Assembly: GCA_001786995.1 (NCBI GenBank)
Contig: MFUO01000004.1
Location: forward strand, 1-35,961
Reading direction: 5' to 3'
Length of the DNA: 35,961 nt
DNA from: Candidatus Nomurabacteria bacterium RIFCSPLOWO2_01_FULL_33_17
GTDB taxonomy: Bacteria; Patescibacteriota; Minisyncoccia; Phycocordibacterales; UBA9973
Each line of letters starts with the position of its first letter. Positions within the stretch are counted from its first letter, which is position 1. Both the position numbers and the translations under genes were made by a program. Below the pieces are notes generated by a model. The model was given only the letters and a program-made list of their open reading frames with translations, did no database searches and was not told where the DNA came from. Of the stretch, positions 5,112 to 28,965 are shown piece after piece.

Positions 5112-5594
5112 TTATATTTTAATTTTAACGGCACTAAAAATTTTTATATTCTTTTTAATACCAAGTAGCTCTAAATGATTTTTAAAATTGTCAGTCAATT
5201 TACCTTTTCCAAACCAAACGCTTTGTTGAATCATTATAAAACCCCATAACTTTAATTGTTTGCGTAACCAGTCACGAATCTTTCTTTTTTCTTCTGGAAT
5301 ATCAAACATAACCATAACACCATCTGTATTTTCTTCTTTTTTAAAATACGTTGAAGTACTCTTAGCATTTATATATTTCTTATGATCAAGAACAATATCA
5401 TCTTTGATTAATTTAATAAAACCTTGTTTTTTTAACCTATACAAACTTTGAGAAAATGCTTGTTTTTTTTGTTTATCTCTTCCTTCAACAAGATTTCGGA
5501 GTATTTTTGTTTGTAAAGACTTTGATTTACATGACAAAAGATGACTTATTATTAACTCAGTAAAAGTTGCTCTTTCCCAATATGGTTGTTTCAT
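5112..5594 (-). CDS. winged-helix plus Cas2-fold (PaaX-like) putative transcriptional regulator
   Basis: The C-terminal VMFDIPEEKRKIRDWLRKQLKLWGFIMIQQSVWFG matches the Cas2-like ferredoxin module of PaaX-type regulators. The N-terminal half looks like a wHTH. I prefer the ATG at 5594 (MKQPYWE...) over the track's GTG at 5618, which lies inside the upstream palindrome. Confidence 0.6.
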   Translation of the reverse strand: MKQPYWERATFTELIISHLLSCKSKSLQTKILRNLVEGRDKQKKQAFSQSLYRLKKQGFIKLIKDDIVLDHKKYINAKSTSTYFKKEENTDGVMVMFDIPEEKRKIRDWLRKQLKLWGFIMIQQSVWFGKGKLTDNFKNHLELLGIKKNIKIFSAVKIKI

Positions 5595-5603
5595 TTTTCT
5601 ATT

Positions 5604-5637
5604 ATAACTATTTATCACGGTCGTGACAAATAGTTAT
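5604..5637. promoter_or_regulatory. 34-bp near-perfect palindrome ataactatttatcacg-gt-cgtgacaaatagttat (candidate operator)
   Basis: Read directly from the sequence. It sits in the divergent region between the regulator (start 5594) and the GT2 gene (start 5676). It has the same length and architecture as 5062-5095. Confidence 0.6.
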
Positions 5638-5675: not shown

Positions 5676-6386
5676 ATGAAAATTTCTGTACTAATAGTTG
5701 CACATAACGAGGAAGAATACATTGGAAAATGCTTGGAAAGTATTTTAAACCAAAGTCAAAAACCAGATGAGATTATTTTAATAGCTCATAATTGTACTGA
5801 CAAAACTATACAAATTTCTAAAAATTATCCAACTATAAAAACTATAGAATACAACGGGCCTGCTGGTATACCATATGCACGCATAAAGGGTTTTGAAATT
5901 GTTAATGGTGATATAATTTGTTGTATTGATGGAGATGCATATGCACATAAAAATTGGCTAAAAAACATTATAAAGCCATTAATAAAAAATAATAAAATCA
6001 CAATTGTTGGCGGACGACTTATTATGACAAATAATATTTTATGGAGACTAGAAATGATCGGCCAATTTATACGCCGAAAATTTTTAAACGATGAAATTTC
6101 ACAATTTGCATCTGGTGGAAATTTTGCTTGTCGAAAAATTGATTATGAAAAAGTTGGTGGAATAAAACCAATTATAGAACTAAAAGATAAACTGAATTTA
6201 TATTTTTGGGCCGAAGATTACTATCTTTCTCAAGCTTTACGTCAAATAGGAAAGTTCCACATTGCATGGAATGCATTGGTTTATACCAAAATGTCGCCCG
6301 AGCAAGAACCAATAAAAATTCAACCGAAATTAATAAAAAAATGGAATCATGATAATAATGCAATATTAAATTATTTTAAAAAATGA
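5676..6386 (+). CDS. family 2 glycosyltransferase
   Basis: 236-aa ORF with the typical GT2 N-terminus (ISVLIVAHNEEEYIGKCLESILNQ) and a DGD (DxD) motif. Confidence 0.85.
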   Translation: MKISVLIVAHNEEEYIGKCLESILNQSQKPDEIILIAHNCTDKTIQISKNYPTIKTIEYNGPAGIPYARIKGFEIVNGDIICCIDGDAYAHKNWLKNIIKPLIKNNKITIVGGRLIMTNNILWRLEMIGQFIRRKFLNDEISQFASGGNFACRKIDYEKVGGIKPIIELKDKLNLYFWAEDYYLSQALRQIGKFHIAWNALVYTKMSPEQEPIKIQPKLIKKWNHDNNAILNYFKK

Positions 6387-8054: not shown

Positions 8055-9944
8055 TTATTGTATAACAATTCCATCTTTTGATGTACCGTTAGAAATTTCA
8101 GTTGTTATATTGGGATGAATAGCTGTAACTTCTTTATTAGAAAATAAATCAGTTCCATTAAATCGAATTCTTTGTAAGATTTCTGGTGATAGACCAAGTT
8201 GAGAAAGTGATGGAGAAAAAGATAATTGAATTGCTGCAGACCGTGGTGCATTTGTGTTACCAGCACCAGATTCAATATTTCCTAAATTCCATATTATTTC
8301 ACGAGTATCTGGATTATATGTTACTTTTTCACCAGCAGTAACTTTACCAACCCATTTAACATAAAAAGGAATTTTTGAAACAAGTTTACCACCTGTTATA
8401 TCATTATGAGTATTCTTTAAAGAAAATGTAATTTGATATATAGTTTCTTTTTCAACAGTTAATGGAATCATCCCCGAAGCATAAATATTTAAGACACTAA
8501 TGGTTGGTTCTGTTGCAACACGTACTGTAGCAGTTTCAATATTTTGAAGATTTTGTACTATACCACTACCGTCATCTTTTATACCACTAAATGACAACGA
8601 TAAATTAACCAATGGATCTTTAACAACAACAGGACCATCCGTACTTTTAGCTAATGCACGAAATGTAAAATTAAGAATACCATCGGTACCTGGTGGGATT
8701 ATATTTAGTGATTCTTTTGTATTTTTATCCCAAAACATTTCATTTTTTGCAGAATCATAAAATCCTTCTACAGGAATAATTGATAATTCATCGAGTGCTG
8801 ATCCACTAATATTTAAATGAAAAACTGGATTAATAATAGGTACAGATCCACGATTACGATATACTATTTCACCTTGAATATTAGTATTTGGATTAACAGC
8901 AATTGTTTTACCTTTTTCTGTACCCAAAAGAATATAAACATCGAGAATTGGGCGAGTTAGTGATATAACATGTGTTCTTGATACATAACTTGTTTTTATA
9001 TTAGTTCCACTAGAATCAAGTGGAACACCTGCAAAAAAACGAAAAGACCTTTCATCCCCTTCTTGTGAACTAAATCTTCCAGTAATAATTATATCTTCAT
9101 AATCACCTTCATTTTGTGTATTGATAATCCAAGTCCCTACACTAAAACTTGGTTGTTTAGAGAGTGATTCAACAGTAAAATCTCGTGGAAAAACAATTGA
9201 TATAAGAGACCCTATTGGTAAAGATTTAGTATTTTGACTAATACGCAAACGAAGAGTATAAAGTTGACCTGGTGAAATTTCATTAGGAGCATCAACATCT
9301 AAAATTATTGGTGAACTTGATATACTTAGAGCTGATTCTGCAATTTTAGTATATGTTAATGTTGAATCTGGAAGACTATATTCAAGAGTTGCTTTTATAT
9401 TTTTTGTACTACCCTTTTCACCATACAAAACAACTGTAATACTTTTATTAATTTTTTCTCCTGGAGCAATATCAGGTAAATCTAACCGAACAAATTCAAA
9501 ATCTTCACGAAGTAATTCTTCGCTACCCCTGGGGTATTGTATTTCCATGTGAACATTTTTAAGAGCAGTATTATTACGATTTACAATTTGGATAGATAAA
9601 GGTAATGATTCTCCACCTTTTGAAAAAGGAGCAGTTACAATTTCTATATCAATATGTTTTGATATAAAATCTTCTCTTGATTCAGAAAAAAATAAACGAT
9701 AACCTGCATATAAAAATGCTAATAACAACACAATAAGAGAAATCATAAAAAACTTTTTTGCAAAAGAAGATTTTCTAATAATATTCTCATTATTATCTAT
9801 ATTCTCTGGTATAAAAGGTGTTCTTAGCTTAAATGATGTACCTGTTAGTGGATGATGCTCTAATTTAGGTACACTGTGTGATGTACTATACAAATCATTT
9901 TCTTCTTGATTTATAAAATCATTTTTTTCTTCTTTAGGAATCAT
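8055..9944 (-). CDS. membrane-anchored protein with repeated beta-sandwich (CARDB/DUF11-like) ectodomain
   Basis: 629-aa ORF with a single TM helix (FFMISLIVLLLAFLYAGY) after a ~70-aa cytoplasmic tail, followed by a long beta-rich region. No catalytic motifs recognised. Confidence 0.65.
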   Translation of the reverse strand: MIPKEEKNDFINQEENDLYSTSHSVPKLEHHPLTGTSFKLRTPFIPENIDNNENIIRKSSFAKKFFMISLIVLLLAFLYAGYRLFFSESREDFISKHIDIEIVTAPFSKGGESLPLSIQIVNRNNTALKNVHMEIQYPRGSEELLREDFEFVRLDLPDIAPGEKINKSITVVLYGEKGSTKNIKATLEYSLPDSTLTYTKIAESALSISSSPIILDVDAPNEISPGQLYTLRLRISQNTKSLPIGSLISIVFPRDFTVESLSKQPSFSVGTWIINTQNEGDYEDIIITGRFSSQEGDERSFRFFAGVPLDSSGTNIKTSYVSRTHVISLTRPILDVYILLGTEKGKTIAVNPNTNIQGEIVYRNRGSVPIINPVFHLNISGSALDELSIIPVEGFYDSAKNEMFWDKNTKESLNIIPPGTDGILNFTFRALAKSTDGPVVVKDPLVNLSLSFSGIKDDGSGIVQNLQNIETATVRVATEPTISVLNIYASGMIPLTVEKETIYQITFSLKNTHNDITGGKLVSKIPFYVKWVGKVTAGEKVTYNPDTREIIWNLGNIESGAGNTNAPRSAAIQLSFSPSLSQLGLSPEILQRIRFNGTDLFSNKEVTAIHPNITTEISNGTSKDGIVIQ

Positions 9945-10579: not shown

Positions 10580-13500
10580 TTAATTTATATCTATATCAAA
10601 AATTAAATTATCTATCTTAAAGACAGACCCATTTATCTCCTCTCCCAATACCATCTCTTTTGCCGATACTTCACTAAGTAATGCTTGCTCCCAAAAATTT
10701 AGAAAATCTTTCCCTTTATCATTTGTTTTTATTTGAACTGTTATTTTATCATGGGCTTTTAATCCACGGGCTTTACGCATATCTTGGACAAATCTTACTA
10801 ATTCACGAAAATTACCTTCGCTTTTTAATTCTTCATTTATTTCTGTGTCAAAATCAACCTTGTCACCAATGACGACACTTTCTACATTTAATTCATCAGC
10901 GACGATCACAATATAATCCATAGATAAATTATCTGTTATAAAAAATGTTCGAAGTATTTGGCGAACAGGAATACCATATTTTTTTCGAAGAGAATGTCCA
11001 ACAGTGCAAATATCTTGAACTTTCTCCATTGTTTCTAAAATAAAATCAGATTCTGGTATACCAAAATAATCGGGCCAATTTACTAAATGCACGCTTATTG
11101 GGTCAGATTCTAATCTTAAATCTTGCCATAATTCTTCGGCAACAAATGGTGTAAATGGCGCCATGATTTTAGCTAAATTTTTTAAAACAAAATACAATGT
11201 ATTATGGGCATCCATATCACCCCCACGAATTCGCAAACGCGAACGACGAGTATACCATGTTGATAATTCATCTATAAAATTTCTAATTTCTCTTGTTGGT
11301 GGAAGTAATGAATAATTATCCAATGATAAAGTTGTATTTTTTATAAGATTCATTAATTTAATTAATATCCATTTATCCAATACATTATTGCTATTTGGTA
11401 TACTAAAAAGATTTTCTTTTGTTTTGTCACGATAAAGATCGTAGAAAGCATAAACATTACGAAGAAGATTAAAAACTTTTTTAATTACTTCATCTACTGT
11501 TTTTTCGTCAAAATTTTTAAAATCCCCTGGTTGGTTAATACTATACATCCAAAAACGCAATGCATCAGCTCCGAATCGGTTACACAAATCCCATGGATCA
11601 ACAGTATTACCACGAGATTTAGACATTTTTTGTCCATCTTTATCCATTACAAGCCCAAGACAAATTACATTTTTATATGCTGGCCCGCGCCCCATAAGAG
11701 CTGATACAGCATGTAAAGTATAAAACCAACCGCGAGTTTGGTCTATACCTTCACAAATATAATCAGCAGGAATTGATACTTGGTCTGTTTTAAAGGGATA
11801 ACCATCTTGGGCAAATGGCATACAACCAGAATCAAACCAACAATCCATGACTTCGGGAACTCTTTGTAATTTATTTCCATTTTTATCATAAACTGGATAA
11901 TCATCAATATATGGCCGGTGTAAATCAAGTTCATAATTTTCATTATGTGGCAATGGAACAAAATCTAATTCTTTCCATTCGGCGTTTTGTGAATAATGAA
12001 AATCTTCAATATTATTAGGAATTTCATTTTTACTCAATCCTAAAGAACCAATAACCATATTCAAAACTGGCCCACCATGGGAAAAAATTAAAATATTTTT
12101 GTTTTGATATTTTTCCTCAAAATCATAAAGCGCATTCATGACTCTATTTTTTACATCTTGATAATTTTCTCCATCTTTATTTTCTTTTATGTAGCGGTCT
12201 TTGTAATTTGAGAAAAGTCCCAAGAAATCACCAAGATCACGACCTTGGTAAATTTCCCCTGGATTCATTTCGCACAATCTTTCATCAAAAATAATCTCAT
12301 TTTTGTCATACCCAATTACATCCGCTACTATTTCAGCTGTCATTTTTGTTCTCAACAATGGCGAACAAATTATAAGATCTATATTTTTATCTTTCAAACC
12401 TTGCGCGGAATTTTGTACTTGATCTTTACCCTTTTCAGTTAACTTTACAATACTATTTGGTTTTGAATCCCAAACATTTTTTATATTATTTTCTGCTTCA
12501 CCATGACGCATTACAAAATATTTATTTCCAGATTTTTTTGTAGCGGCCTGCAAATCTTTATGATTCGTAAAAATATGTTTTTCTCCGTTTTGCCCTATCC
12601 AAACAGGTAATGGCGTACCCCAATATCTTTCGCGTGATATTGCCCAATCTTTTACTTCGCGTAGCCATTCACCAAATCGTCCATTTTGAATATGCTTGGG
12701 TTCCCAATTTATAAAATCATTATTCATGACCAAATCATCACGAAGCTCACTCATCCGGATGTACCATGAATCTCGAGTATAATAAATAAGTGGAGTTTGA
12801 CAGCGCCAACAATATGGATAACTATGTTCGTATTTTTCTTTTTTAAACAGTAGTCCACGATGGGCTAAATCTTTAATTATATCAATTGCGACTTGTTCAT
12901 CTTTTACAAATCTATTGCTCAATTCTAATTCATCAGAATTCATTTCGGAATTAAAAGTTCCATCTAATCCAACTAAATGATATTTTGGAAGACCAAGTTT
13001 TGTACCCAATTCAAAATCATCTTGTCCATACATAACTGCTGTATGCACTATCCCAGTCCCATCATTGGCATTTACGAAACCTGCTTCATAAACTTTGTAT
13101 GCTTTATCTAAATTTCCTGTCTGTCCGGTAGGTAGGTCTTTTTGCTCGTGAGATATTTGATTAACAAAAAATGGATACAGTGGTTCATAAGATAAACCAA
13201 TTAAATCTTTACCAATATATTCTTCAACTATTTCATACTCTCCATCAACTATACTTAACCTGTCTTTACCTAAGATCAAAAAATCTGCATCTTTTTTAAT
13301 TTTTACATACGACAAATCAACATTAACAGCCAATGCAACATTACCGGGTAATGTCCAAGGAGTAGTAGTCCAAGCTAGCAAATATGTATTTTCTTGTCCA
13401 AGAATTTTAAATTTTGCAGTAATAGATAAATCTTTTACATCTTTATAACCTTGCGCTAGTTCATGTGATGACAATGCTGTACCACACCTTGAGCACCACG

Positions 13501-14035
13501 GCACAATTCGATAGTCTTTATAAAGTAAATTTTTCTTATCAACTTCGGCTACGATATTCCAAAGTGATTCTATGTAATTTGATTCATAAGTAATATAAGG
13601 ATTATCTTGATCAATCCAATACCCAACTCTATCAGTAAATTTTTGCCATTCATCAATATAAGTCCAAACGCTTTTTTTACATTCATTATTAAAATTTCCT
13701 ATTCCATATTCTTCAATTTGTTTTTTGTTTACAAAACCAAGTTCTTTTTCAACTTGTAATTCAACTGGTAGTCCATGTGTGTCCCAGCCACCCTTGCGAC
13801 CTACATGGTACCCCTGCATTGTTTTATAACGAGGTATTGCATCTTTAAAAGCTCGAGCTTCTAGATGATGAATTCCAGGACGACCATTGGCAGTAGGTGG
13901 CCCATCATAAAAAACAAATTCACCATTTGGAGAATCTTTTTCCAAACTTTTTTCAAAGATTTTATTATCCTTCCAAAAAGACATGATTTCCAACTCATGC
14001 TCGTTTATTGATTTACTTATTTTCTCTTCTTTCAT
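10580..14035 (-). CDS. ileS: isoleucine--tRNA ligase (type 2) with an inserted histidine-phosphatase domain
   Basis: Has the editing-domain TTPWTLPGN, WAISRERYWGTPLPVW, EGIDQTRGWFY and KMSKSRGN. The true start is probably the ATG at 14035 (MKEEKISKS...). The track's extra 16 codons (MFCCMWTSFYLDNINY) lie on the T-box terminator. Confidence 0.95.
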   Translation of the reverse strand: MKEEKISKSINEHELEIMSFWKDNKIFEKSLEKDSPNGEFVFYDGPPTANGRPGIHHLEARAFKDAIPRYKTMQGYHVGRKGGWDTHGLPVELQVEKELGFVNKKQIEEYGIGNFNNECKKSVWTYIDEWQKFTDRVGYWIDQDNPYITYESNYIESLWNIVAEVDKKNLLYKDYRIVPWCSRCGTALSSHELAQGYKDVKDLSITAKFKILGQENTYLLAWTTTPWTLPGNVALAVNVDLSYVKIKKDADFLILGKDRLSIVDGEYEIVEEYIGKDLIGLSYEPLYPFFVNQISHEQKDLPTGQTGNLDKAYKVYEAGFVNANDGTGIVHTAVMYGQDDFELGTKLGLPKYHLVGLDGTFNSEMNSDELELSNRFVKDEQVAIDIIKDLAHRGLLFKKEKYEHSYPYCWRCQTPLIYYTRDSWYIRMSELRDDLVMNNDFINWEPKHIQNGRFGEWLREVKDWAISRERYWGTPLPVWIGQNGEKHIFTNHKDLQAATKKSGNKYFVMRHGEAENNIKNVWDSKPNSIVKLTEKGKDQVQNSAQGLKDKNIDLIICSPLLRTKMTAEIVADVIGYDKNEIIFDERLCEMNPGEIYQGRDLGDFLGLFSNYKDRYIKENKDGENYQDVKNRVMNALYDFEEKYQNKNILIFSHGGPVLNMVIGSLGLSKNEIPNNIEDFHYSQNAEWKELDFVPLPHNENYELDLHRPYIDDYPVYDKNGNKLQRVPEVMDCWFDSGCMPFAQDGYPFKTDQVSIPADYICEGIDQTRGWFYTLHAVSALMGRGPAYKNVICLGLVMDKDGQKMSKSRGNTVDPWDLCNRFGADALRFWMYSINQPGDFKNFDEKTVDEVIKKVFNLLRNVYAFYDLYRDKTKENLFSIPNSNNVLDKWILIKLMNLIKNTTLSLDNYSLLPPTREIRNFIDELSTWYTRRSRLRIRGGDMDAHNTLYFVLKNLAKIMAPFTPFVAEELWQDLRLESDPISVHLVNWPDYFGIPESDFILETMEKVQDICTVGHSLRKKYGIPVRQILRTFFITDNLSMDYIVIVADELNVESVVIGDKVDFDTEINEELKSEGNFRELVRFVQDMRKARGLKAHDKITVQIKTNDKGKDFLNFWEQALLSEVSAKEMVLGEEINGSVFKIDNLIFDIDIN
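11960..12523 (-). other. histidine phosphatase (PGAM-superfamily) domain embedded in ileS
   Basis: KYFVMRHGEAENN, ICSPLLRTKMTAEIV, ERLCEMNPGEIYG and ILIFSHGGPV are all present, in frame, between two conserved IleRS segments. Confidence 0.8.
13112..13138. repeat. 27-nt palindromic module in frame in ileS
   Basis: atttcctgtctgtccggtaggtaggtc differs from the tatD-like copy at two stem positions plus one flanking base. It encodes DLPTGQTGN. Confidence 0.7.
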
Positions 14036-14241
14036 ATAATTTATATTATCCAAATAAAAACTCGTCCACATACAACAAAACAAATTGTTATATAAGGACG
14101 AGTTTCACTCGTGGTACCACCTTAATTACTTCTCATTTACTGGATTCTAATCCCCTAAATTAGGGTTTCTTTCCAAAGCCTGCCTGCCTAAATTTTACAA
14201 ATTTTAGTAGGCTCCGGGGCGATACTCCCATCATTGCTTAT
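14036..14241 (-). promoter_or_regulatory. T-box leader (tRNA-sensing riboswitch) controlling ileS
   Basis: The minus-strand RNA contains AAUUAAGGUGGUACCACGAG (T-box core; + strand 14106-14125). A terminator follows: AAACUCGUCC...GGACGAGUUU plus UUUUAUUU (14053-14105). A GAUGGGAG K-turn-like start and a possible AUC specifier (+ strand 14221-14223) are also present. Confidence 0.8.
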
Positions 14242-14278: not shown

Positions 14279-14701
14279 TTATTTTTTACCAGTACTACCA
14301 AACATTCCAAGACCACGAGCTGATTCACTTAAAGTATCTGTTTCCTCTAATTCACCAATAACAACTGGCATAATGACAAGTTGAGAAACTTTGTCACCAA
14401 CTTCAAAAGTATAAGGCTCATTTGATAAATTTACCAAAAGCGTATTATATTCACCCCTATATCCAGCATCAAAAACCCCACCCATATGATGAAGCCCAGC
14501 TTTTGAAATACTTCCCTTGTCCATTATAATTCCTCCATACCCTTCGGGAAATTCCAATGCAAATCCATGCCAAAACCGATAATGCTCACATGGCTTTAAT
14601 GTAACCGTTTCCATTGCATACATATCCATCCCCACATCTCCCGGATGAGCATAACTTGGCAACTTTGCATTATCTTTTAATCTTTTTACTTTTATTTTCA
14701 T
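14279..14701 (-). CDS. dut: dUTP diphosphatase
   Basis: 140-aa ORF with dUTPase motifs (HPGDVGMD, FDAGYRGE, C-terminal RGLGMFGSTG). Confidence 0.9.
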   Translation of the reverse strand: MKIKVKRLKDNAKLPSYAHPGDVGMDMYAMETVTLKPCEHYRFWHGFALEFPEGYGGIIMDKGSISKAGLHHMGGVFDAGYRGEYNTLLVNLSNEPYTFEVGDKVSQLVIMPVVIGELEETDTLSESARGLGMFGSTGKK

Positions 14702-14801
14702 CCACCTAAACTTTTCACTTATATAATATTTATTTTCATGAAAAATACTTTAATTTATTAATTATACCAAAGATTTCTAATTTAAAAAAGTTTTGGCGGA
14801 T
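14700..14801 (-). repeat. ~100-nt structured intergenic cassette, copy A (between tmk and dut)
   Basis: Terminal inverted repeats are atccacctaaactttt (14700-14715) and aaaagttttggcggat (14786-14801). One end overlaps the dut ATG and the other abuts the tmk TGA. The interior contains TGgTATAAT on the minus strand. Confidence 0.85.
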
Positions 14802-15506
14802 TCATTTTATCTTTAATACTTTCTTAATATTATTAAATACTTCTTCATGAATGTCTTCGCGGGTGCGGATGGATTTCTTTTCAGCACAATCTATTTTAAT
14901 AAAGTTTTTAAGTTTTGTTGCCAGCCACATTGCGCTTTTGCGAGAATTTATTAAAAAATCTTTGTCGGATTCATGAACATCTTTTTTATTTTTTAAATAA
15001 GACCTTTTTGTTTTTTTATTTCGTTCATCAATTAATTTTAATATAATGTCTATTGGCAAACTAAGATACAAAACAATATCCGGTCGTGGAATTTTAAAAA
15101 CTTTATATTCCATCTCGTCTAACCATTCTAAATATGCTTCGCGTTTTTTATTACTTTTTATTTTACCACCTTGGTGAATTTGATTAGCACTAACATAACG
15201 GTTAGCAAGCACAATATATCCCCCATCGAGCCATTTACGAATTTCACTTGATGATTCAAATCTGTCCGCAGCGTATAGCACTGATGCAATTTTAGGATGA
15301 ACTTTCAAAAAGTTAAAATACTGTTCACTCAAGCAATGCCCAATAAATCCCCCAAAGAAATTTTTATAATATTCAGGAAAATCAACGGTTTTTATTTTAA
15401 AACCATCTTTTTTAAGTCTTTTGGCAAGTAAATCAATTTGTGTGGTTTTACCAGATCCATCAGTACCATCTATTACAATAAGTTTTCCTTTTTCTTTTTT
15501 ATTCAT
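14802..15506 (-). CDS. tmk: thymidylate kinase
   Basis: 234-aa ORF with P-loop VIDGTDGSGKTTQ, the DRY-like ADRF segment and a lid region. Confidence 0.9.
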   Translation of the reverse strand: MNKKEKGKLIVIDGTDGSGKTTQIDLLAKRLKKDGFKIKTVDFPEYYKNFFGGFIGHCLSEQYFNFLKVHPKIASVLYAADRFESSSEIRKWLDGGYIVLANRYVSANQIHQGGKIKSNKKREAYLEWLDEMEYKVFKIPRPDIVLYLSLPIDIILKLIDERNKKTKRSYLKNKKDVHESDKDFLINSRKSAMWLATKLKNFIKIDCAEKKSIRTREDIHEEVFNNIKKVLKIK

Positions 15507-15600
15507 CCGCCTAAACTTTTCACTTATTATAATATTTTATTTTTGTAAAAAGTAATCTAATCTAATAATAATTTCTAATTTAATAAAGTTTTGGTGGATA
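15505..15600 (-). repeat. ~100-nt structured intergenic cassette, copy B (between RluA-family gene and tmk)
   Basis: Terminal inverted repeats are atccgcctaaactttt (15505-15520) and aaagttttggtggat (15586-15600). The distal arm encodes the last 8 codons plus the stop (LSTKTLLN*) of the upstream gene. Confidence 0.85.
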
Positions 15601-16351
15601 AACCTAATTCTTTAATTGCATTTAACATATCATCTGGTAATGGGGCAACAAAATTAACCATTTTTTGGGTTTTTGGATGAGTAAATTTGATTTCATACGA
15701 ATGAAGTGCTTGGCGCTTCATATTTAAAAGTTCTGGTAAATAAGATGCATATAATGAATCACCAATTATTGGATGTTGAATGTATTGCATGTGAACACGA
15801 ATTTGATGAGTGCGACCCGTTTGTGGATAAATAGAAACCTTTGAAACACTGTAATTTTGTCCATCGAGGCCTGTTGTTTTACCATCACCAGATACTGTGT
15901 ACATAGTTAATGCTTCTCTTTTTTCTCCCCTGGCATGCACGCCGGCTGCCCATTTACGAATGTCTTGATTTGAACGCCCAATTAATTCATCTACTTTTCC
16001 ACGAGTATGTCGAAATGATCCAAAGACTAAAGCTTGATAATGTTTTTTTACAATATGGTCTTGAAATTGTTTTTTCAAACTATCATAAGCATTTTGTGTT
16101 TTAGCTAAAACCATAATACCACTGGTATCGCGATCAAGACGGTGAACTATACCTGGTCGCATTATCATTTCTCCACTATCCACGGTCAAAGGCTCTCCAA
16201 CAAATTTCATCGCAGGATTATATTCCAATACCATGTTTGATAAAGTATCAAATTCATTCTTTCCATCTGGGTGTACAGTAAGACCGGCTGGTTTGTTAAT
16301 AACCATAATTGCATCATCTTCAAAAATTACCATGTCTTTAAATTTGTTCAT
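15575..16351 (-). CDS. RluA-family 23S rRNA/tRNA pseudouridine synthase (no S4 domain)
   Basis: 258-aa ORF with VINKPAGL and the catalytic HRLDRDTSG motif, plus GRTHQIRVH. Confidence 0.85.
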   Translation of the reverse strand: MNKFKDMVIFEDDAIMVINKPAGLTVHPDGKNEFDTLSNMVLEYNPAMKFVGEPLTVDSGEMIMRPGIVHRLDRDTSGIMVLAKTQNAYDSLKKQFQDHIVKKHYQALVFGSFRHTRGKVDELIGRSNQDIRKWAAGVHARGEKREALTMYTVSGDGKTTGLDGQNYSVSKVSIYPQTGRTHQIRVHMQYIQHPIIGDSLYASYLPELLNMKRQALHSYEIKFTHPKTQKMVNFVAPLPDDMLNAIKELGLSTKTLLN

Positions 16352-16467
16352 CCCGTTAGAGGCAGGTCACGATCTATTTATATAGAAGAAAACCTAACCA
16401 AATTAAACTAATACTAATTTTTAAAAACTTCCCATTAGAAAATATCGTGATCGTGGCCTCTAACGGG
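16352..16467 (-). repeat. 116-nt inverted-repeat cassette abutting the RluA-family start codon
   Basis: cccgttagaggcaggtcacgat (16352-16373) is complementary to atcgtgatcgtggcctctaacggg (16444-16467) as 12 bp, a bulge, then 7 bp. The interior is AT-rich. Confidence 0.7.
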
Positions 16468-25200: not shown

Positions 25201-25828
25201 TACCAGAATCATTTTTTGCGGCTAACCGTACATAATATTTTTTGTATTCTTTGAGGTTTTTTACTTCCTCTTGCATACTACTCATATTATAGTTTTTGCT
25301 TTGGGTTTCTGGTTGAATGATTTTCTTTGTTGCACTCCTGAAAGAATCAGGAGTAATATCGTACTCATACCAAGTCGTGGTGATAAGTCCGTTTGCAAAA
25401 AAGTATCCGTTCACCTGAAACTGATTTGTGTCATTTGTCCAAAGTCCCCATAAATCCACACTAGGAAGTCCAGTTGGTGGTGTGTATAGATAATAGACAC
25501 TACCATAGCTTACCCCATTTGAATTTTTTGCAACCACCATATATTCGTATGATGTTTGTTCGTTGAGGTTTGTAATTGTCTGGCTTATTGTGCCAGAATT
25601 ACTTTTTGTGTAACGTTGGCTTGTGTCAACTTTACTTGACCCACTTTGCCAGTAGATAAAGTAGGATTCACAGGCCGATCCATTTGGGTTTACATACCCA
25701 TTTAAGACTGCGGAATTTCCAAATACACGAGTTGCATCGTATGTATCGACATACGGTGCTTGTGCGTAAGATGTTAGGCTACAGCTAATAATAGCGAGCC
25801 ATGTCATAATCATTTTTTTTGTTTTCAT
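22244..25828 (-). CDS. large secreted protein: ~11 tandem Fn3-like modules plus T9SS (Por) C-terminal sorting domain
   Basis: 1194-aa ORF with signal peptide MKTKKMIMTWLAIISCSLTSYAQAP. It has about 11 modules of roughly 95-100 aa, each ending L.PNTTYYYR..A.N..G...G....F.T. The C-terminus KAYPNPFLEQLTVES...INLDHLPAGVYFIQIYKGSQFIGNQKIVKQ matches the T9SS type A sorting tail pattern. Confidence 0.85.
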   Translation of the reverse strand: MKTKKMIMTWLAIISCSLTSYAQAPYVDTYDATRVFGNSAVLNGYVNPNGSACESYFIYWQSGSSKVDTSQRYTKSNSGTISQTITNLNEQTSYEYMVVAKNSNGVSYGSVYYLYTPPTGLPSVDLWGLWTNDTNQFQVNGYFFANGLITTTWYEYDITPDSFRSATKKIIQPETQSKNYNMSSMQEEVKNLKEYKKYYVRLAAKNDSGTVYSSVGTIITQSGKPPVVITDSATNLSNSTAMLNCRFDGLANCAYSYYEYGQSPKSLNKSTYDSYFQSWNCQYGMFNYSKEIYGLSPNTTYYYRAVSESNRGKSYGEILSFKTEGSYAPEVLTLQASNISYTSADLWGYYNSNGAESTEISFQHGTSIYLGLETSPVSYQKGTDTVKVSIKDIESGAKHYYRLKAKTKFGISYGSLVEFTTDFNFPPTTNTDSAIASSTTQINVFAKFDANRTDTKTWFEYDTLVNKYSMSTSKSSQGKSAGNISETLSGLLPNHTYFIRSGAENVFGIVYGKTIAVTTLNNQQPLVVTDSIDAISSTYAILAGFVDGKKSDTKFVFEWGTSSQTLTNQTPEIKTGKGSSYQLVPIYGLDQYTTYYYRIKATNEWGVTKGQVYKFRTLPNKEAVVKILKIDSITPNSAKITVVIDGRGTISDFALNYGNDLNLREQTDFFTAKKVLDTLTVLLSGLNPDSRYYLAPISRNSFGEIQGNVKELTTLNNKPPTIKLETVCATATTIVFDGYYNSNKTKTNVWVVCKDKNGFTIKTTILDDKIDSGPFSILANDLDANTWYYYQAYAQNSFGIVMTTTDSVLTLGNQKPIVKTLTPIVHDTYAILFAEVDGQGTNTNIEFVYGTDPSELYKITGKFNSGSYKKTVQGIMYGLKPNTTYFFYVSAENTWGIEKSEIMSFRTLDFTPQKEKVFLKILSIEVTADIHYAVLKASISSKDELASYWTTYGDGQKSSVEMFYDSGIRIVTIVLTNLWANSTQSCLFYLQNVNGKDSMLVEFKTKNNQTPNVKTLKITQVDDSTLLFEGKYNANGSAPIRYYFEYSTDLSFSKRSPIYFSKNDSDVVYSMVSCNYGETYYTRLVCENEIGITQGNILSLKTKEKDVTGINDVSINPDQVAIKAYPNPFLEQLTVESKEGDLVVFINIQGVVVHKTLIQNDVEQINLDHLPAGVYFIQIYKGSQFIGNQKIVKQ

Positions 25829-28180: not shown

Positions 28181-28864
28181 TTATGCTATTTTATTCGTTA
28201 TATCAGAAACAATTTTGCCATCTACCAAAAAAATAGTCCTGTCAGACATATGGGCATATTCAACTTCGTGCGTAACCATAATAATGGTTTGACCTTCATG
28301 ATTTAGCTTTAAAAACAAATCAATGATATTTTTTGAAGTCTCTGTATCTAAATTAGCTGTTGGCTCATCAGCAAAAAGAACTTTCGGATTATGTGATATT
28401 GCCCGGGCAATGGAGACTCGTTGCTGTTGCCCTCCGGAAAGTTGACTAGGTAAATTATGCATTCTATCTTCCAATCCAACTTTAGTTAAAGCTTCAATTG
28501 TCTTGTTTTCTGCTTGCTTGTCATCCAGACCCAACATTAACAATGGGACCATGACATTTTCAAATGCAGTTAATGATGGCAATATTGCGTAATCCTGAAA
28601 TATATAACCAAGATTTTTTAATCGCATACTACTTTTTTGATTTTCATCTAAAGATTCGGTATTAATATCATCAATTATAATTTGACCATCAGTTGGTGTA
28701 TCTAATAATCCTAATTGATAAAGTAATGTTGATTTACCACTACCTGACTTTCCAGAAACTGTTAAAAACTGACCATCTGGAATAGTAAAAGACACATCAT
28801 CGAGTGCTCGAATTGGTGAATCACCATTCTCAAAAATTTTAGCTAAATTTTTTATTTGTATCAT
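28181..28864 (-). CDS. ABC transporter ATP-binding protein (MacB/LolD-like)
   Basis: 227-aa ORF with Walker [10 protein letters not shown], signature LSGGQQQR and Walker B LFADEPT. Confidence 0.9.
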
Positions 28865-28965
28865 CCTCCTAAACTTTTCACTTATATAAGTTATTTATTT
28901 TTGTGAAAAGTATTTTAATTTATTAAATAATAATTAAGACCTAATTTAAAAAAGTTTCGGCGGAT
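28863..28965 (-). repeat. ~100-nt structured intergenic cassette, copy D (between FtsX permease and ABC ATPase)
   Basis: Terminal inverted repeats are atcctcctaaactttt (28863-28878) and aaaagtttcggcggat (28950-28965). AGGAGG lies flush against the ATPase ATG. Confidence 0.85.

What the first reader, a model, noticed from the sequence alone, without database searches (positions are those of the whole stretch)
14700..15600. Family of ~100-nt inverted-repeat cassettes that each end exactly on the start codon of an unrelated gene (4 copies in 36 kb)
There are four copies:
- 14700-14801, between tmk and dut
- 15505-15600, between the RluA-family gene and tmk
- 17954-18053, between rplK and a membrane protein gene
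- 28863-28965, between the FtsX permease and the ABC ATPase

In the transcribed (minus) orientation the consensus is ATCCRCCRAAACTTTT, then about 45 nt of variable AT-rich sequence, then ACTTTTCAC, then about 19 nt (AAAAATAAATA..TATATAA), then GTGAAAAGTTTAGGNGG-ATG.

The 16-nt ends are inverted repeats. 13-15 of 16 positions are complementary, with the same central mismatch position in every copy (A-A in three copies, G-A in copy D).

The 3' arm places AGGYGG or AGGAGG flush against the ATG of four functionally unrelated genes. The other start codons I inspected in the window (secE, nusG, rplK, fusA, rpsG, rpsL, the adaptor gene, the FKBP gene and others) have only A/T-rich upstream sequence and no SD.

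The 5' arm abuts the tmk stop codon. In copy B it encodes the last 8 codons and the stop of the RluA-family gene (LSTKTLLN*). One copy sits inside what should be a single permease-ATPase operon.

Size, terminal inverted repeats and copy number are MITE-like. The nucleotide-exact docking on start codons suggests a start-site or expression cassette, either mobile or exapted.
Basis: seen in the sequence. Interest (0 to 1): 0.8.

Follow-up and report, generated by a model that had tools for sequence, protein, structure and literature searches.

The report
Hairpin mini-elements docked on start codons
The four ~100-base inverted-repeat cassettes are real, and they look like gene-less copies of a tiny selfish element (an 87-93-residue GIY-YIG nuclease gene bracketed by the same repeats) that inserts exactly in front of host start codons in some candidate-phyla-radiation bacteria.

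Summary
Four cassettes of 95-103 nt lie on the minus strand, and each ends ...AAAAGTTTAGGNGGAT-G on the start codon of dut, tmk, a DUF975 gene or an ABC ATPase.

The source is a Candidatus Nomurabacteria genome that otherwise lacks Shine-Dalgarno sequences.

Searches that did not require an ATG found 35 distinct copies in all. Every copy has the orientation of the downstream gene, and 26 sit flush on ATG/GTG.

The cassettes are insertions:
- A syntenic relative (L040) lacks all three of copies A, B and C.
- 185 kb from ten related genomes holds none.
- At clean empty/filled pairs, one ATGA (the old start, or a stop/start overlap) becomes ATGA[cassette]ATGA.
- Copies resemble each other by genome, not by locus.

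The likely parent is a UPF0213-type GIY-YIG gene:
- In L051 its ORF lies between the same two arms, and the 3' arm encodes its last residues KSLGG plus stop, next to rplA's ATG.
- Elsewhere the ORF runs into a 5' arm (...MNPPKLS*) and carries a cassette in front of dut or glyA.

So this is a MITE-like element with a non-transposase parent. Whether the hairpin preserves translational coupling of host genes is inferred, not shown.

The parts
14700..14801 (-). Cassette A (102 nt), between tmk and dut
   Evidence: RNA fold -20.6 kcal/mol, z=-3.3. Empty site in L036-L040, L043 and L044.
14786..14801 (-). 5' arm of A, ATCCGCCAAAACTTTT
14700..14715 (-). 3' arm of A, AAAAGTTTAGGTGGAT. Its last two bases, AT, are the first two bases of the dut ATG.
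14802..14805 (-). Left ATGA of copy A. Its TGA is the tmk stop. It aligns with the single ATGA (the dut start) of the empty sites.
   Evidence: L039 has ...ATAAAATAAT|ATGAAAATA; the window has ...ATAAAATGA[cassette]ATGAAAATA.
14698..14701 (-). Right ATGA of copy A (dut start codon plus the next base)
15505..15599 (-). Cassette B (95 nt), between the RluA-family gene and tmk. The RluA ORF lost its own stop and reads through the 5' arm to TAG at 15575-15577.
   Evidence: L040 has GGAATATAA-t-ATG at this junction.
15584..15599 (-). 5' arm of B, ATCCACCAAAACTTTA
15505..15520 (-). 3' arm of B, AAAAGTTTAGGCGGAT
17954..18053 (-). Cassette C (100 nt), between rplK and the DUF975 membrane-protein gene
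   Evidence: The syntenic L040 has a terminator plus GGGTATATGAtatacttataaccatATGAAT here and no cassette.
18038..18053 (-). 5' arm of C, preceded by ATGA at 18054-18057
17954..17969 (-). 3' arm of C
28863..28965 (-). Cassette D (103 nt), between the FtsX permease and ABC ATPase genes
28950..28965 (-). 5' arm of D, ATCCGCCGAAACTTTT. The FtsX stop TAA ends 8 nt upstream of it.
28863..28878 (-). 3' arm of D, AAAAGTTTAGGAGGAT. It is identical to the 3' arm that encodes KSLGG* of the GIY-YIG gene in L051.
14279..14701 (-). dut (dUTPase), the gene downstream of cassette A
   Evidence: 100% identical to a Candidatus Nomurabacteria protein.
14802..15506 (-). tmk, downstream of cassette B and upstream of cassette A
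17128..17955 (-). DUF975-like membrane-protein gene, downstream of cassette C
28181..28864 (-). ABC ATPase gene, downstream of cassette D

Best explanation
The cassettes are ORF-less (MITE-like) copies of a very small mobile element found in some Patescibacteria.

The complete element is about 290 bp. It consists of a 16-19-bp 5' arm, an 87-93-residue GIY-YIG (UPF0213/YhbQ-type) nuclease ORF, and the inverted 3' arm.

Shown:
- The element inserts in one orientation, directly in front of a host start codon.
- The 3' arm AAA AGT TTA GGN GGA T(G/A)A is the nuclease's last five codons plus its stop.
- That stop either overlaps the host ATG (GGATGA, the classic ATGA overlap) or places AGGAGG 5 nt before it.
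- Where an empty site can be compared cleanly, one ATGA becomes ATGA[element]ATGA. The upstream gene therefore keeps a stop and the downstream gene keeps its start and reading frame.

Consequences:
- This explains the nucleotide-exact docking and the strict orientation.
- Loss of the ORF leaves 5' arm, about 70 AT-rich nt, and 3' arm, which is what the window holds four times.

Inferred, not shown:
- The GIY-YIG nuclease supplies the break or strand transfer that spreads both forms.
- In the mRNA the two arms pair (-16 to -21 kcal/mol), masking the AUG and placing it next to the upstream stop.
- Ribosomes finishing the upstream ORF, whose stop lies from 24 nt before to 28 nt after the first arm base, would unzip the stem. 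Translation of the downstream gene would then stay coupled in a genome without SD sequences.
For: Family and docking:
- There are 35 distinct copies, from a GTDB genome scan, a metagenome scan that specified only the two arms, and later loci.
- All 35 have the orientation of the downstream gene.
- 26 are flush on ATG/GTG, one has its start inside the arm, and five have the start 2-5 nt after it.
- The antisense reading of the same copies gives no ORF start.
- The base after the ATG is A in 26 of 28 copies, against 17 of 30 window genes (p=3e-5).

Insertion:
- L040 is syntenic with the window (nusG-rplK-membrane gene ... RluA-tmk-dut-IleRS) and lacks cassettes A, B and C.
- Ten related loci totalling 185 kb hold none.
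- A clean empty/filled pair exists at dut->argS. L039 reads AAAATAATGAAACAAC; L015 reads AAAATAATGA[ATCC..GGAT]GAAACAAC.
- 19 of 35 copies have ATGA on the left flank.
- The middle parts are 72-81% alike among the four window copies, and 93% between copy A and L007 (in front of a different gene). They are only 56-58% alike to the cassettes in front of dut in other genomes.

GIY-YIG link:
- In L051-L053 the ORF lies between ATCCTCCAAAACTTTT and AAAAGTTTAGGAGGAT, 256 nt apart. The 3' arm reads KSLGG*, followed by AAG and the rplA ATG.
- Of 95 homologs, 33 end in residues encoded by a 5' arm (MNPPKLS.. or S[AT]KTF) and 13 end in ..LGG.
- GIY-YIG plus cassette sits in front of dut (L003, L023, L025) and in front of glyA (L045-L050, L054-L061).
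- L043, whose Dut is 90% identical to that of L025, has tmk and dut adjacent.
- The nuclease is 76% identical between L003 and L025, while the L003 Dut is only about 50% identical to the Nomurabacteria Dut set, to which the L025 Dut is 86-90% identical.
- In L045 the only cassette in 20 kb is the one attached to the GIY-YIG gene.
- A second GIY-YIG subfamily in L032 is bracketed by a different, perfect 12-nt inverted repeat 260 nt apart.

Arms:
- 13 of the 16 positions are Watson-Crick paired in at least 34 of 35 copies.
- Position 12 changes C-G to U-A in 3 copies.
Against: - The ORF-between-arms form was seen at DNA level at only one locus (three samples). For the other 12 ..LGG* proteins it is inferred from protein sequence alone.
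- No GIY-YIG gene lies in the window, and the rest of the source genome could not be read.
- The nuclease has only a catalytic domain and no DNA-binding domain. No enzyme activity, target or transposition chemistry is known for UPF0213 proteins.
- Sites B and C are not clean insertions. 8-15 nt of the old junction are missing, and RluA lost its stop.
- 16 of 35 left flanks are not ATGA.
- Homology between the cassette middles and the ORF ends, beyond the arms, is weak in AT-rich sequence.
- The metagenome pattern required two intact arms, so decayed or differently placed copies would have been missed.
- The coupling function has no direct support. In three copies with a long upstream ORF (C, L012, L049) the upstream stop ends 16-24 nt before the stem, probably too far for a terminating ribosome to open it.
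Confidence: 0.68

Rival explanations
1. A plain selfish MITE of an ordinary (DDE or HUH/IS200-IS605-like) transposon that targets ATGA. On this view the adjacency to GIY-YIG genes is a coincidence: those genes are just further genes with a cassette behind them, or they home into cassettes.
For: - Terminal inverted repeats, small size, ATGA direct repeats, patchy distribution and empty sites.
- Orientation-specific insertion next to a tetranucleotide, and a hairpin with conserved mismatches (A.A at position 8 in 30 of 35 copies; A.C or G.U at position 5 in 26 of 35), recall ssDNA-hairpin transposition. That comparison is from my own knowledge of IS608/REP-RAYT; the counts are.
Against: - No transposase gene of any kind was seen in about 0.5 Mb of loci carrying or neighbouring cassettes.
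- The arms bracket a GIY-YIG ORF in L051, and the 3' arm is in frame as its C-terminus.
- 46 of 95 homologs end in arm-encoded residues.
- A second GIY-YIG subfamily has its own bracketing repeat.
Confidence: 0.17
2. A host-selected translational control module. The stem masks the start codon, and it is opened by upstream translation, temperature or a factor. The module would be kept because it regulates these genes.
For: - The stem includes the A and U of the AUG, and the folds are better than shuffles (z -1.8 to -3.3).
- The arms are invariant while the middles diverge. L015 and L030 share 32 of 32 arm bases at 80% middle identity.
- A compensatory C-G to U-A change occurs at position 12.
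- The window genome lacks SD sequences.
Against: - The cassette is absent from the same junctions in close relatives that have the same genes.
- The downstream genes are functionally unrelated.
- The middles cluster by genome, not by gene.
- There is no Rfam match.
Confidence: 0.08
3. A portable promoter/RBS cassette. An internal promoter would start a short-leader mRNA at the 3' arm, and AGGNGG would serve as the ribosome-binding site.
For: - Copy A has TGGTATAAT.
- The window copies have TATATAAG/TATAAT about 20 nt before the ATG.
- In the GC-richer loci L051, L011, L031 and L032, AGGNGG lies 4-7 nt from the ATG, a workable SD spacing.
Against: - The simple sigma-70 scan finds no two-hexamer promoter in the cassettes on the gene strand, and fewer sites overall than in shuffles.
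- In 26 of 35 copies the spacing to the ATG is zero.
- The middle base of GGNGG is mostly C or T.
- Cassettes occur inside ribosomal-protein operons, where a promoter is not needed.
Confidence: 0.05
4. Integron-like attC recombination sites that delimit gene cassettes.
For: - Imperfect inverted repeats of attC-like length, with conserved unpaired positions.
- A small gene (GIY-YIG) found between or next to the sites.
Against: - No integrase was seen.
- The flanking genes are core, syntenic housekeeping genes.
- The arm ends do not fit RYYYAAC/GTTRRRY.
- The sites lie in front of genes rather than behind promoterless cassettes.
Confidence: 0.02

Closest known systems
Bacterial MITEs that sit in transcribed intergenic regions (Correia/NEMIS of Neisseria, ERIC, RUP, Chunjie)
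   Same: - About 100 bp long, with terminal inverted repeats.
- Tens of copies per genome, and non-coding.
- Inserted between co-directional genes without breaking operons.
- Fold into long hairpins in mRNA.
- Show presence/absence between strains.
(Review PMC10969869; my own knowledge.)
   Different: - The parent is not a transposase-encoding IS but a GIY-YIG nuclease ORF.
- Orientation relative to the downstream gene is strict (35 of 35).
- The ends are nucleotide-exact on the start codon, and often on the stop codon.
- The flanking repeat is ATGA rather than TA.
Free-standing GIY-YIG homing endonuclease genes of T-even phages (seg genes; I-TevI relatives)
   Same: - A small GIY-YIG gene wedged between conserved genes, often nucleotide-metabolism genes (here tmk/dut/glyA).
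- Patchy among close relatives, and more conserved than its hosts.
- Weak hit to the group I intron endonuclease model TIGR01453.
   Different: - Only the catalytic domain is present (87-93 aa), with no DNA-binding domain.
- The ORF is bracketed by inverted repeats.
- It has ORF-less derivatives at many unrelated junctions, which homing alone does not explain.
- It is found in cellular CPR genomes and not in viral contigs.
UPF0213 / YhbQ-type GIY-YIG proteins (PDB 1zg2 BH0048, 1ywl EF2693)
   Same: This is the sequence family of the associated nuclease (E=2e-6; Pfam GIY-YIG).
   Different: To my knowledge these proteins are annotated as conserved proteins of unknown function. No bracketing repeats or mobility are described in the papers I could search.
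MIRUs of Mycobacterium tuberculosis (my own knowledge: Supply et al. 1997)
   Same: Intercistronic repeats within operons, co-oriented with the genes, whose ends overlap the upstream stop and the downstream start.
   Different: - MIRUs are tandem direct repeats that carry a small ORF across the unit.
- Here there are inverted repeats, lengths of 95-109 nt that are not multiples of three, and a mini-ORF (MNPPKLF*) that stops after 7-24 codons.
REP/BIME-RAYT and IS200/IS605-derived palindromic elements
   Same: - Hairpin with conserved mismatches.
- Strand- and orientation-specific placement next to a short conserved tetranucleotide.
- A 34-nt arms-only form exists (L003 2829-2862).
   Different: No Y1/HUH transposase was seen. 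The associated gene is a GIY-YIG nuclease.
Ribosome termination structures and ATGA termination-reinitiation coupling
   Same: - A stable stem immediately after the stop codon of the upstream gene (RTS, PMC7518266).
- ATGA stop/start overlaps as coupling devices (PMC6728339).
   Different: Here the stem's other strand is the downstream start site about 100 nt away, and the structure arrives ready-made on a mobile element. A functional effect has not been tested.

Membership tests
Prokaryotic MITE | Small (<300 bp), non-coding, multi-copy | tested here: met
   Copies are 95-109 nt (short forms of 34 and 70-71 nt). There are 4 in 36 kb and 35 distinct copies overall. The only ORF is a 7-24-codon mini-ORF.
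Prokaryotic MITE | Terminal inverted repeats | tested here: met
   16-nt arms. 13 of the 16 positions are Watson-Crick paired in at least 34 of 35 copies.
Prokaryotic MITE | Target-site duplication | tested here: inconclusive
   - ATGA flanks both sides in 19 of 35 copies, and ATGT/ATGT in L006.
- A single ATGA is present in the clean empty sites.
- The left ATGA could equally belong to the element, since it is the Met-Asn codons of the GIY-YIG C-terminus. 16 of 35 left flanks differ.
Prokaryotic MITE | Presence/absence at orthologous sites | tested here: met
   L040 lacks copies A, B and C. L036-L044 lack the tmk-dut and dut-argS copies.
Prokaryotic MITE | An autonomous element with the same ends that encodes a transposase | tested here: not met
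   The only ORF-carrying element with these arms encodes a GIY-YIG nuclease, not a known transposase.
Free-standing GIY-YIG homing endonuclease gene (applies to the parent element, not the window copies) | GIY-YIG catalytic domain | tested here: met
   PF01541, E=1e-14 to 5e-17. No such gene lies in the window itself.
Free-standing GIY-YIG homing endonuclease gene | A separate DNA-binding or target-recognition domain | tested here: not met
   The proteins are 84-104 aa, and the catalytic domain covers residues 2-67.
Free-standing GIY-YIG homing endonuclease gene | Cleaves the allele that lacks it; spreads by break repair | not testable with these tools
   Only the pattern is seen. A 375-nt block of GIY-YIG plus cassette lies between the tmk stop and the dut ATG in L025, against adjacent tmk and dut in L043.
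IS200/IS605-type or REP-RAYT palindromic element | An associated Y1 (HUH) transposase | tested here: not met
   None appears among the called genes and Pfam hits of loci L035-L061, nor in the window. Whole genomes were not available.
Integron attC site | IntI integrase, RYYYAAC/GTTRRRY cores, arrays of accessory cassettes | tested here: not met
   There is no integrase. The arm sequences are GCCAAAAC/GTTTAGG. The flanking genes are core and syntenic.
MIRU-type intercistronic repeat | A small ORF spanning the unit that overlaps both the flanking stop and start; tandem direct repeats | tested here: not met
   The mini-ORF ATG AAT CCR CCR AAA CTT ... stops after 7-24 codons. No tandem direct repeats are present.
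Known cis-regulatory RNA family (Rfam) | Match to a curated covariance model | tested here: not met
   No hit at gathering score in the window. At E<=1 there is only a chance snoRNA hit.

The most novel reading that the evidence does not exclude
UPF0213/YhbQ-type GIY-YIG genes bracketed by inverted repeats are a previously unrecognised class of minimal autonomous mobile element, about 290 bp with one 87-residue nuclease. The element inserts at start codons. Its 3' repeat does three jobs at once: it is the nuclease's C-terminal codons, a terminal repeat, and a translation adaptor that hands ribosomes to the host gene. Its ORF-less hairpin copies keep operons of SD-less CPR genomes translationally coupled by bringing stop and start together across about 100 nt.
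Probability: 0.35. Interest if true: 0.85.

Novelty: new variant of a known kind. Interest (0 to 1): 0.7.

Why it matters
If this is right, three things follow.

- It gives a concrete biological role, selfish mobility, to a widespread family of 'conserved hypothetical' GIY-YIG proteins.
- It describes what may be one of the smallest self-contained mobile elements, with a MITE-like offspring that does not derive from a transposase-encoding IS.
- It shows how a parasite can insert inside tightly packed, SD-less operons (even between ribosomal-protein genes) at minimal cost, by rebuilding the stop/start junction it splits.

There is also a practical consequence. The cassettes are markers of recent genome flux in Nomurabacteria-like CPR genomes. 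They can mislead gene callers: orphan ATGs, C-terminal extensions such as LSTKTLLN* on RluA, and an apparent SD.

Tried and rejected
- **Shine-Dalgarno function in the window.** Rejected as the main reading. Spacing to the ATG is zero, the middle base of GGNGG is mostly C or T, and the genome is SD-less.
- **Internal sigma-70 promoter.** The consensus scan found none in the cassettes.
- **Known RNA family.** No Rfam match.
- **Two operators for a DNA-looping regulator.** Rejected. A 34-nt arms-only form exists, the ends dock exactly on codons, and the cassettes are absent in relatives.
- **Gene-60-like translational bypass** (GGA UGA ... GGA UGA). Rejected, because landing would be followed at once by UGA.
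- **Integron attC.** See the membership test.
- **Phage origin.** Three viral-contig scans (cassette, ORF-length element, tail-to-head junction) found nothing.
- **GIY-YIG gene in L032 flanked by our arms.** It is not; it has its own 12-nt repeat.
- **Weak nhmmer hit at window 6063-6160**, inside the GT2 gene. Treated as chance.
- **Homology of the cassette middles to the nuclease ORF ends.** Only weak (for example TTTTGTAGATTA against TTTTGTAAATTA), and I do not rely on it.
- **Literature.** Six full-text searches found no description of this element or of repeat-bracketed bacterial GIY-YIG genes. Subscription journals are not covered.
Full report
**1.

The 20-nt 3' end GTGAAAAGTTTAGGNGGATG occurs exactly four times in the window, all on the minus strand. 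None is expected by chance. The partner ATCCRCCRAAACTTTT lies 79-87 nt upstream of each.

The cassettes span 14700-14801, 15505-15599, 17954-18053 and 28863-28965. They align at 82% mean column identity with invariant arms.

Each one ends so that the last two arm bases, AT, plus the next G form the start codon of a real gene. These genes are dUTPase, thymidylate kinase, a DUF975-like membrane protein and an ABC ATPase.

- The tmk stop abuts arm A.
- RluA reads LSTKTLLN* through arm B.
- Copy D splits an FtsX-ATPase pair.
- No other gene start in the window has an SD-like motif.

As single RNA strands the cassettes fold at -16.5 to -20.6 kcal/mol, with z-scores of -1.8 to -3.3.

**2. Organism and setting**

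Dut is 100% identical to a protein of Candidatus Nomurabacteria RIFCSPHIGHO2_02_FULL_33. The window is 32.5% G+C.

Upstream regions are A/T-rich, and several genes have a TGnTATAAT box only 6-7 nt before the ATG. This points to leaderless or SD-independent initiation.

**3. The family outside the window**

An exact scan of one genome per GTDB species found the 3' end in two MAGs labelled Saccharibacteria. In one of them (L003) it again sits in front of dut.

A metagenome scan specified only the two arms, not the ATG. It gave 29 loci. With later loci there are 35 distinct copies.

Orientation can be defined independently of genes, because arm position 8 is A.A (30 copies) or G.A (5 copies) on one strand only. 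On that definition:
- All 35 copies point the same way as the downstream gene.
- 26 are flush on ATG/GTG.
- One has its GTG inside the arm.
- Five have the ATG 2-5 nt after the arm.
- Three have no clear ORF.
- Reading the same copies in antisense gives no ORF start.

Upstream, 31 of 35 copies have a co-directional ORF of at least 60 residues. Its stop ends between 24 nt before and 28 nt after the first arm base.

The downstream genes are unrelated to one another: rplV, rplX, rplE, rplI, ksgA, recR, pnp, argS, zwf, pilC-like, FtsX genes and others.

**4. They are insertions**

L040 (GCA_964603415.1) has the window's gene order, nusG-rplK-membrane protein ... RluA-tmk-dut-IleRS. It has no cassette at any of the three junctions. 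Ten loci from relatives whose Dut is 80-88% identical to the window's, 185 kb in all, contain none, against four in this 36-kb window.

The clean cases are these:
- dut->argS. L039 reads AAAATAATGAAACAACAAATAG. L015 reads AAAATAATGA[ATCC...GGAT]GAAACAACAAATAG.
- tmk->dut. L039 reads ...ATAAAATAAT-ATGAAAATA. The window reads ...ATAAAATGA[cassette]ATGAAAATA.

One ATGA, the old start or a stop/start overlap, is therefore present on both sides after insertion. ATGA is the left flank in 19 of 35 copies, and L006 has ATGT on both sides.

The base after the ATG is A in 26 of 28 copies whose arm is followed directly by G, against 17 of 30 ATG-start genes in the window (p=3e-5).

Sites B and C are less tidy. 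RluA lost its own stop, and 15 nt of the L040 spacer are missing at site C.

The AT-rich middles group by genome, not by locus:
- 72-81% among the four window copies.
- 93% between copy A and L007, which sits in front of a pilC-like gene.
- Only 56-58% to the cassettes in front of dut in other genomes.

**5. The parent element**

In L025, L023 and L003 the gene just upstream of the dut cassette is not tmk. It is a roughly 93-residue GIY-YIG gene.

L043 has a Dut 90% identical to that of L025, and there tmk and dut are adjacent. So a 375-nt block of nuclease gene plus cassette sits exactly between the tmk stop and the dut ATG in L025.

The nuclease is 76% identical between L003 and L025. The L003 Dut is only about 50% identical to the Nomurabacteria Dut set, to which the L025 Dut is 86-90% identical. 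That indicates horizontal transfer.

Among 95 homologs of the nuclease:
- 28 end in ...(D/E)MNPPKLS.., which is ATG AAT CCR CCR AAA CTT, the 5' arm read in frame.
- 5 end in S[AT]KTF, the same arm in another frame.
- 13 end in ..(K/N)(S/N)LGG.

The last group is explained by L051-L053 (secE-nusG-rplK-orf-GIY-rplA). There the ORF lies between the arms:

ATCCTCCAAAACTTTT-gtagattatt-ATG...(87 codons)...AAA AGT TTA GGA GGA TAA-g-ATG(rplA)

The arms are 16 nt, 94% complementary and 256 nt apart. Its 3' arm is identical to that of window copy D.

Other points on the nuclease link:
- The same nuclease plus cassette also sits in front of glyA in many samples.
- In L045 that cassette is the only one in 20 kb.
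- A more distant GIY-YIG gene in L032 is bracketed by its own perfect 12-nt inverted repeat 260 nt apart. Repeat-bracketed ORFs may therefore be general in this protein family.
- The proteins belong to Pfam GIY-YIG, and their nearest solved structures are UPF0213 proteins.
- No such gene lies in the window.

**6. Why the docking is exact**

In the ORF-carrying form the 3' arm is coding sequence followed by the nuclease's stop codon.

- With a TGA stop...GGN GGA TGA overlaps the host ATG. This is the ATGA arrangement known to give termination-reinitiation coupling (PMC6728339).
- With a TAA stop, as in L051, AGGAGG lies 5 nt before the ATG, a normal SD spacing.

The solo cassettes keep this end. 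Their strict orientation follows, because the two arms are not equivalent.

Tail-to-head remnants fit repeated insertion at the ATGA that the element itself recreates:
- AGTTTAGGCGGATGA directly before a full cassette in L012.
- A 34-nt arms-only hairpin before the GIY-YIG gene in L003.
- Two successive 5' arms in L049.

**7. What it does to host genes (inference)**

I could test nothing about expression.

The AGGNGG is unlikely to act as an SD in the window, and a simple scan finds no sigma-70 promoter in the cassettes.

My preferred reading is as follows:
- The arm-arm stem masks the AUG on read-through transcripts.
- The stem is opened by ribosomes that terminate at or inside the 5' arm.
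- A 100-nt insertion would therefore not uncouple the two genes.

This resembles the stop-proximal structures reported to tune reinitiation (PMC7518266). It is weakest for copies whose upstream stop ends 16-24 nt before the stem (C, L012, L049).

**8. Unexplained detail**

Arm position 5 is A.C (19 copies) or G.U (7 copies) far more often than G-C (4) or A-U (1). Fisher's exact test gives p=0.0009, but the copies are not independent. The orthologous glyA copies L045 and L054 differ by exactly this double change.

Together with the invariant purine.A at position 8, this suggests that a folded form (RNA or single-stranded DNA) with fixed non-Watson-Crick positions is what is recognised. Position 12 shows C-G to U-A in three copies.

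**9. Rivals**

- An ordinary transposon MITE is not excluded. No transposase was seen, and whole genomes were not available.
- A host-selected riboregulator is unlikely, given the empty sites in close relatives and the clustering by genome.
- The promoter-cassette and integron readings have little support.

**10. Known relatives and novelty**

The window copies behave like bacterial MITEs in operons. The parent behaves like a free-standing GIY-YIG homing endonuclease gene.

Three things are not in the literature I could search:
- the combination of a repeat-bracketed, catalytic-domain-only GIY-YIG ORF with ORF-less hairpin derivatives,
- the strict start-codon docking,
- a terminal repeat that doubles as coding sequence and as the stop/start junction.

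I rate this a new variant of known kinds.

**11. Caveats**

- The ORF-between-arms form rests on one locus.
- The search pattern required intact arms.
- The mobility mechanism and any effect on translation are inferred.

Noticed in passing
window 10580-14083 (-): The isoleucyl-tRNA synthetase is 1167 aa and has a histidine-phosphatase (His_Phos_1) domain inserted at residues 523-706, in the middle of the catalytic domain. The same architecture is present in relatives L035-L041.
   Followed up: partly
window, e.g. upstream of the starts at 9944, 5676 and 4195: Several genes have a TGnTATAAT-type extended -10 box only 6-7 nt before the ATG, and no SD anywhere. Leaderless mRNAs may be common in this genome.
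   Followed up: no
window 22244-25828 (-): A 1194-aa FN3 / purple-acid-phosphatase-N protein ends in a Por_Secre_tail (type IX secretion sorting) domain. That is unexpected in a Patescibacteria genome.
   Followed up: no
window 5112-5618 (-); L035 8866-9429; L039 5611-6087; L054 3444-3932: A small PaaX_M/Cas2-like protein recurs, usually on the opposite strand, inside the nucleotide-metabolism gene cluster (glyA-tmk-dut) of many relatives.
   Followed up: no
L032 4683-4966: A second, more distant GIY-YIG (UPF0213) gene is bracketed by a perfect 12-nt inverted repeat, ACCCTGTGAAAT/ATTTCACAGGGT, 260 nt apart. It lies with a PemK-like gene pair between rplB and rpsS of the S10 operon.
   Followed up: partly
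L032 1107-1180 and 1400-1474 (minus strand): Short (70-71 nt) cassette variants lie between rplN-rplX and rplX-rplE. Their arms are changed in a compensatory way (AAATTTTT/AAAAATTT), and the ATG lies 5 nt after the arm, at SD-like spacing.
   Followed up: yes
L054-L061, e.g. L054 1294-1722: A HicB/HicA-like toxin-antitoxin pair sits immediately upstream of the GIY-YIG plus cassette unit in front of glyA.
   Followed up: no
L040 4897-8473 versus window about 16350-17130: Ribonucleotide reductase genes lie between the DUF975 gene and RluA in the syntenic relative. They are missing from the window, which has only small unannotated ORFs there.
   Followed up: no
All 35 copies, arm position 5 (window: 14797/14704, 15595/15509, 18049/17958, 28961/28867): The pair at arm position 5 is A.C or G.U in 26 of 35 copies and Watson-Crick in only 6. 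Orthologous copies L045 and L054 differ by the double change A.C to G.U. This is unexplained.
   Followed up: partly
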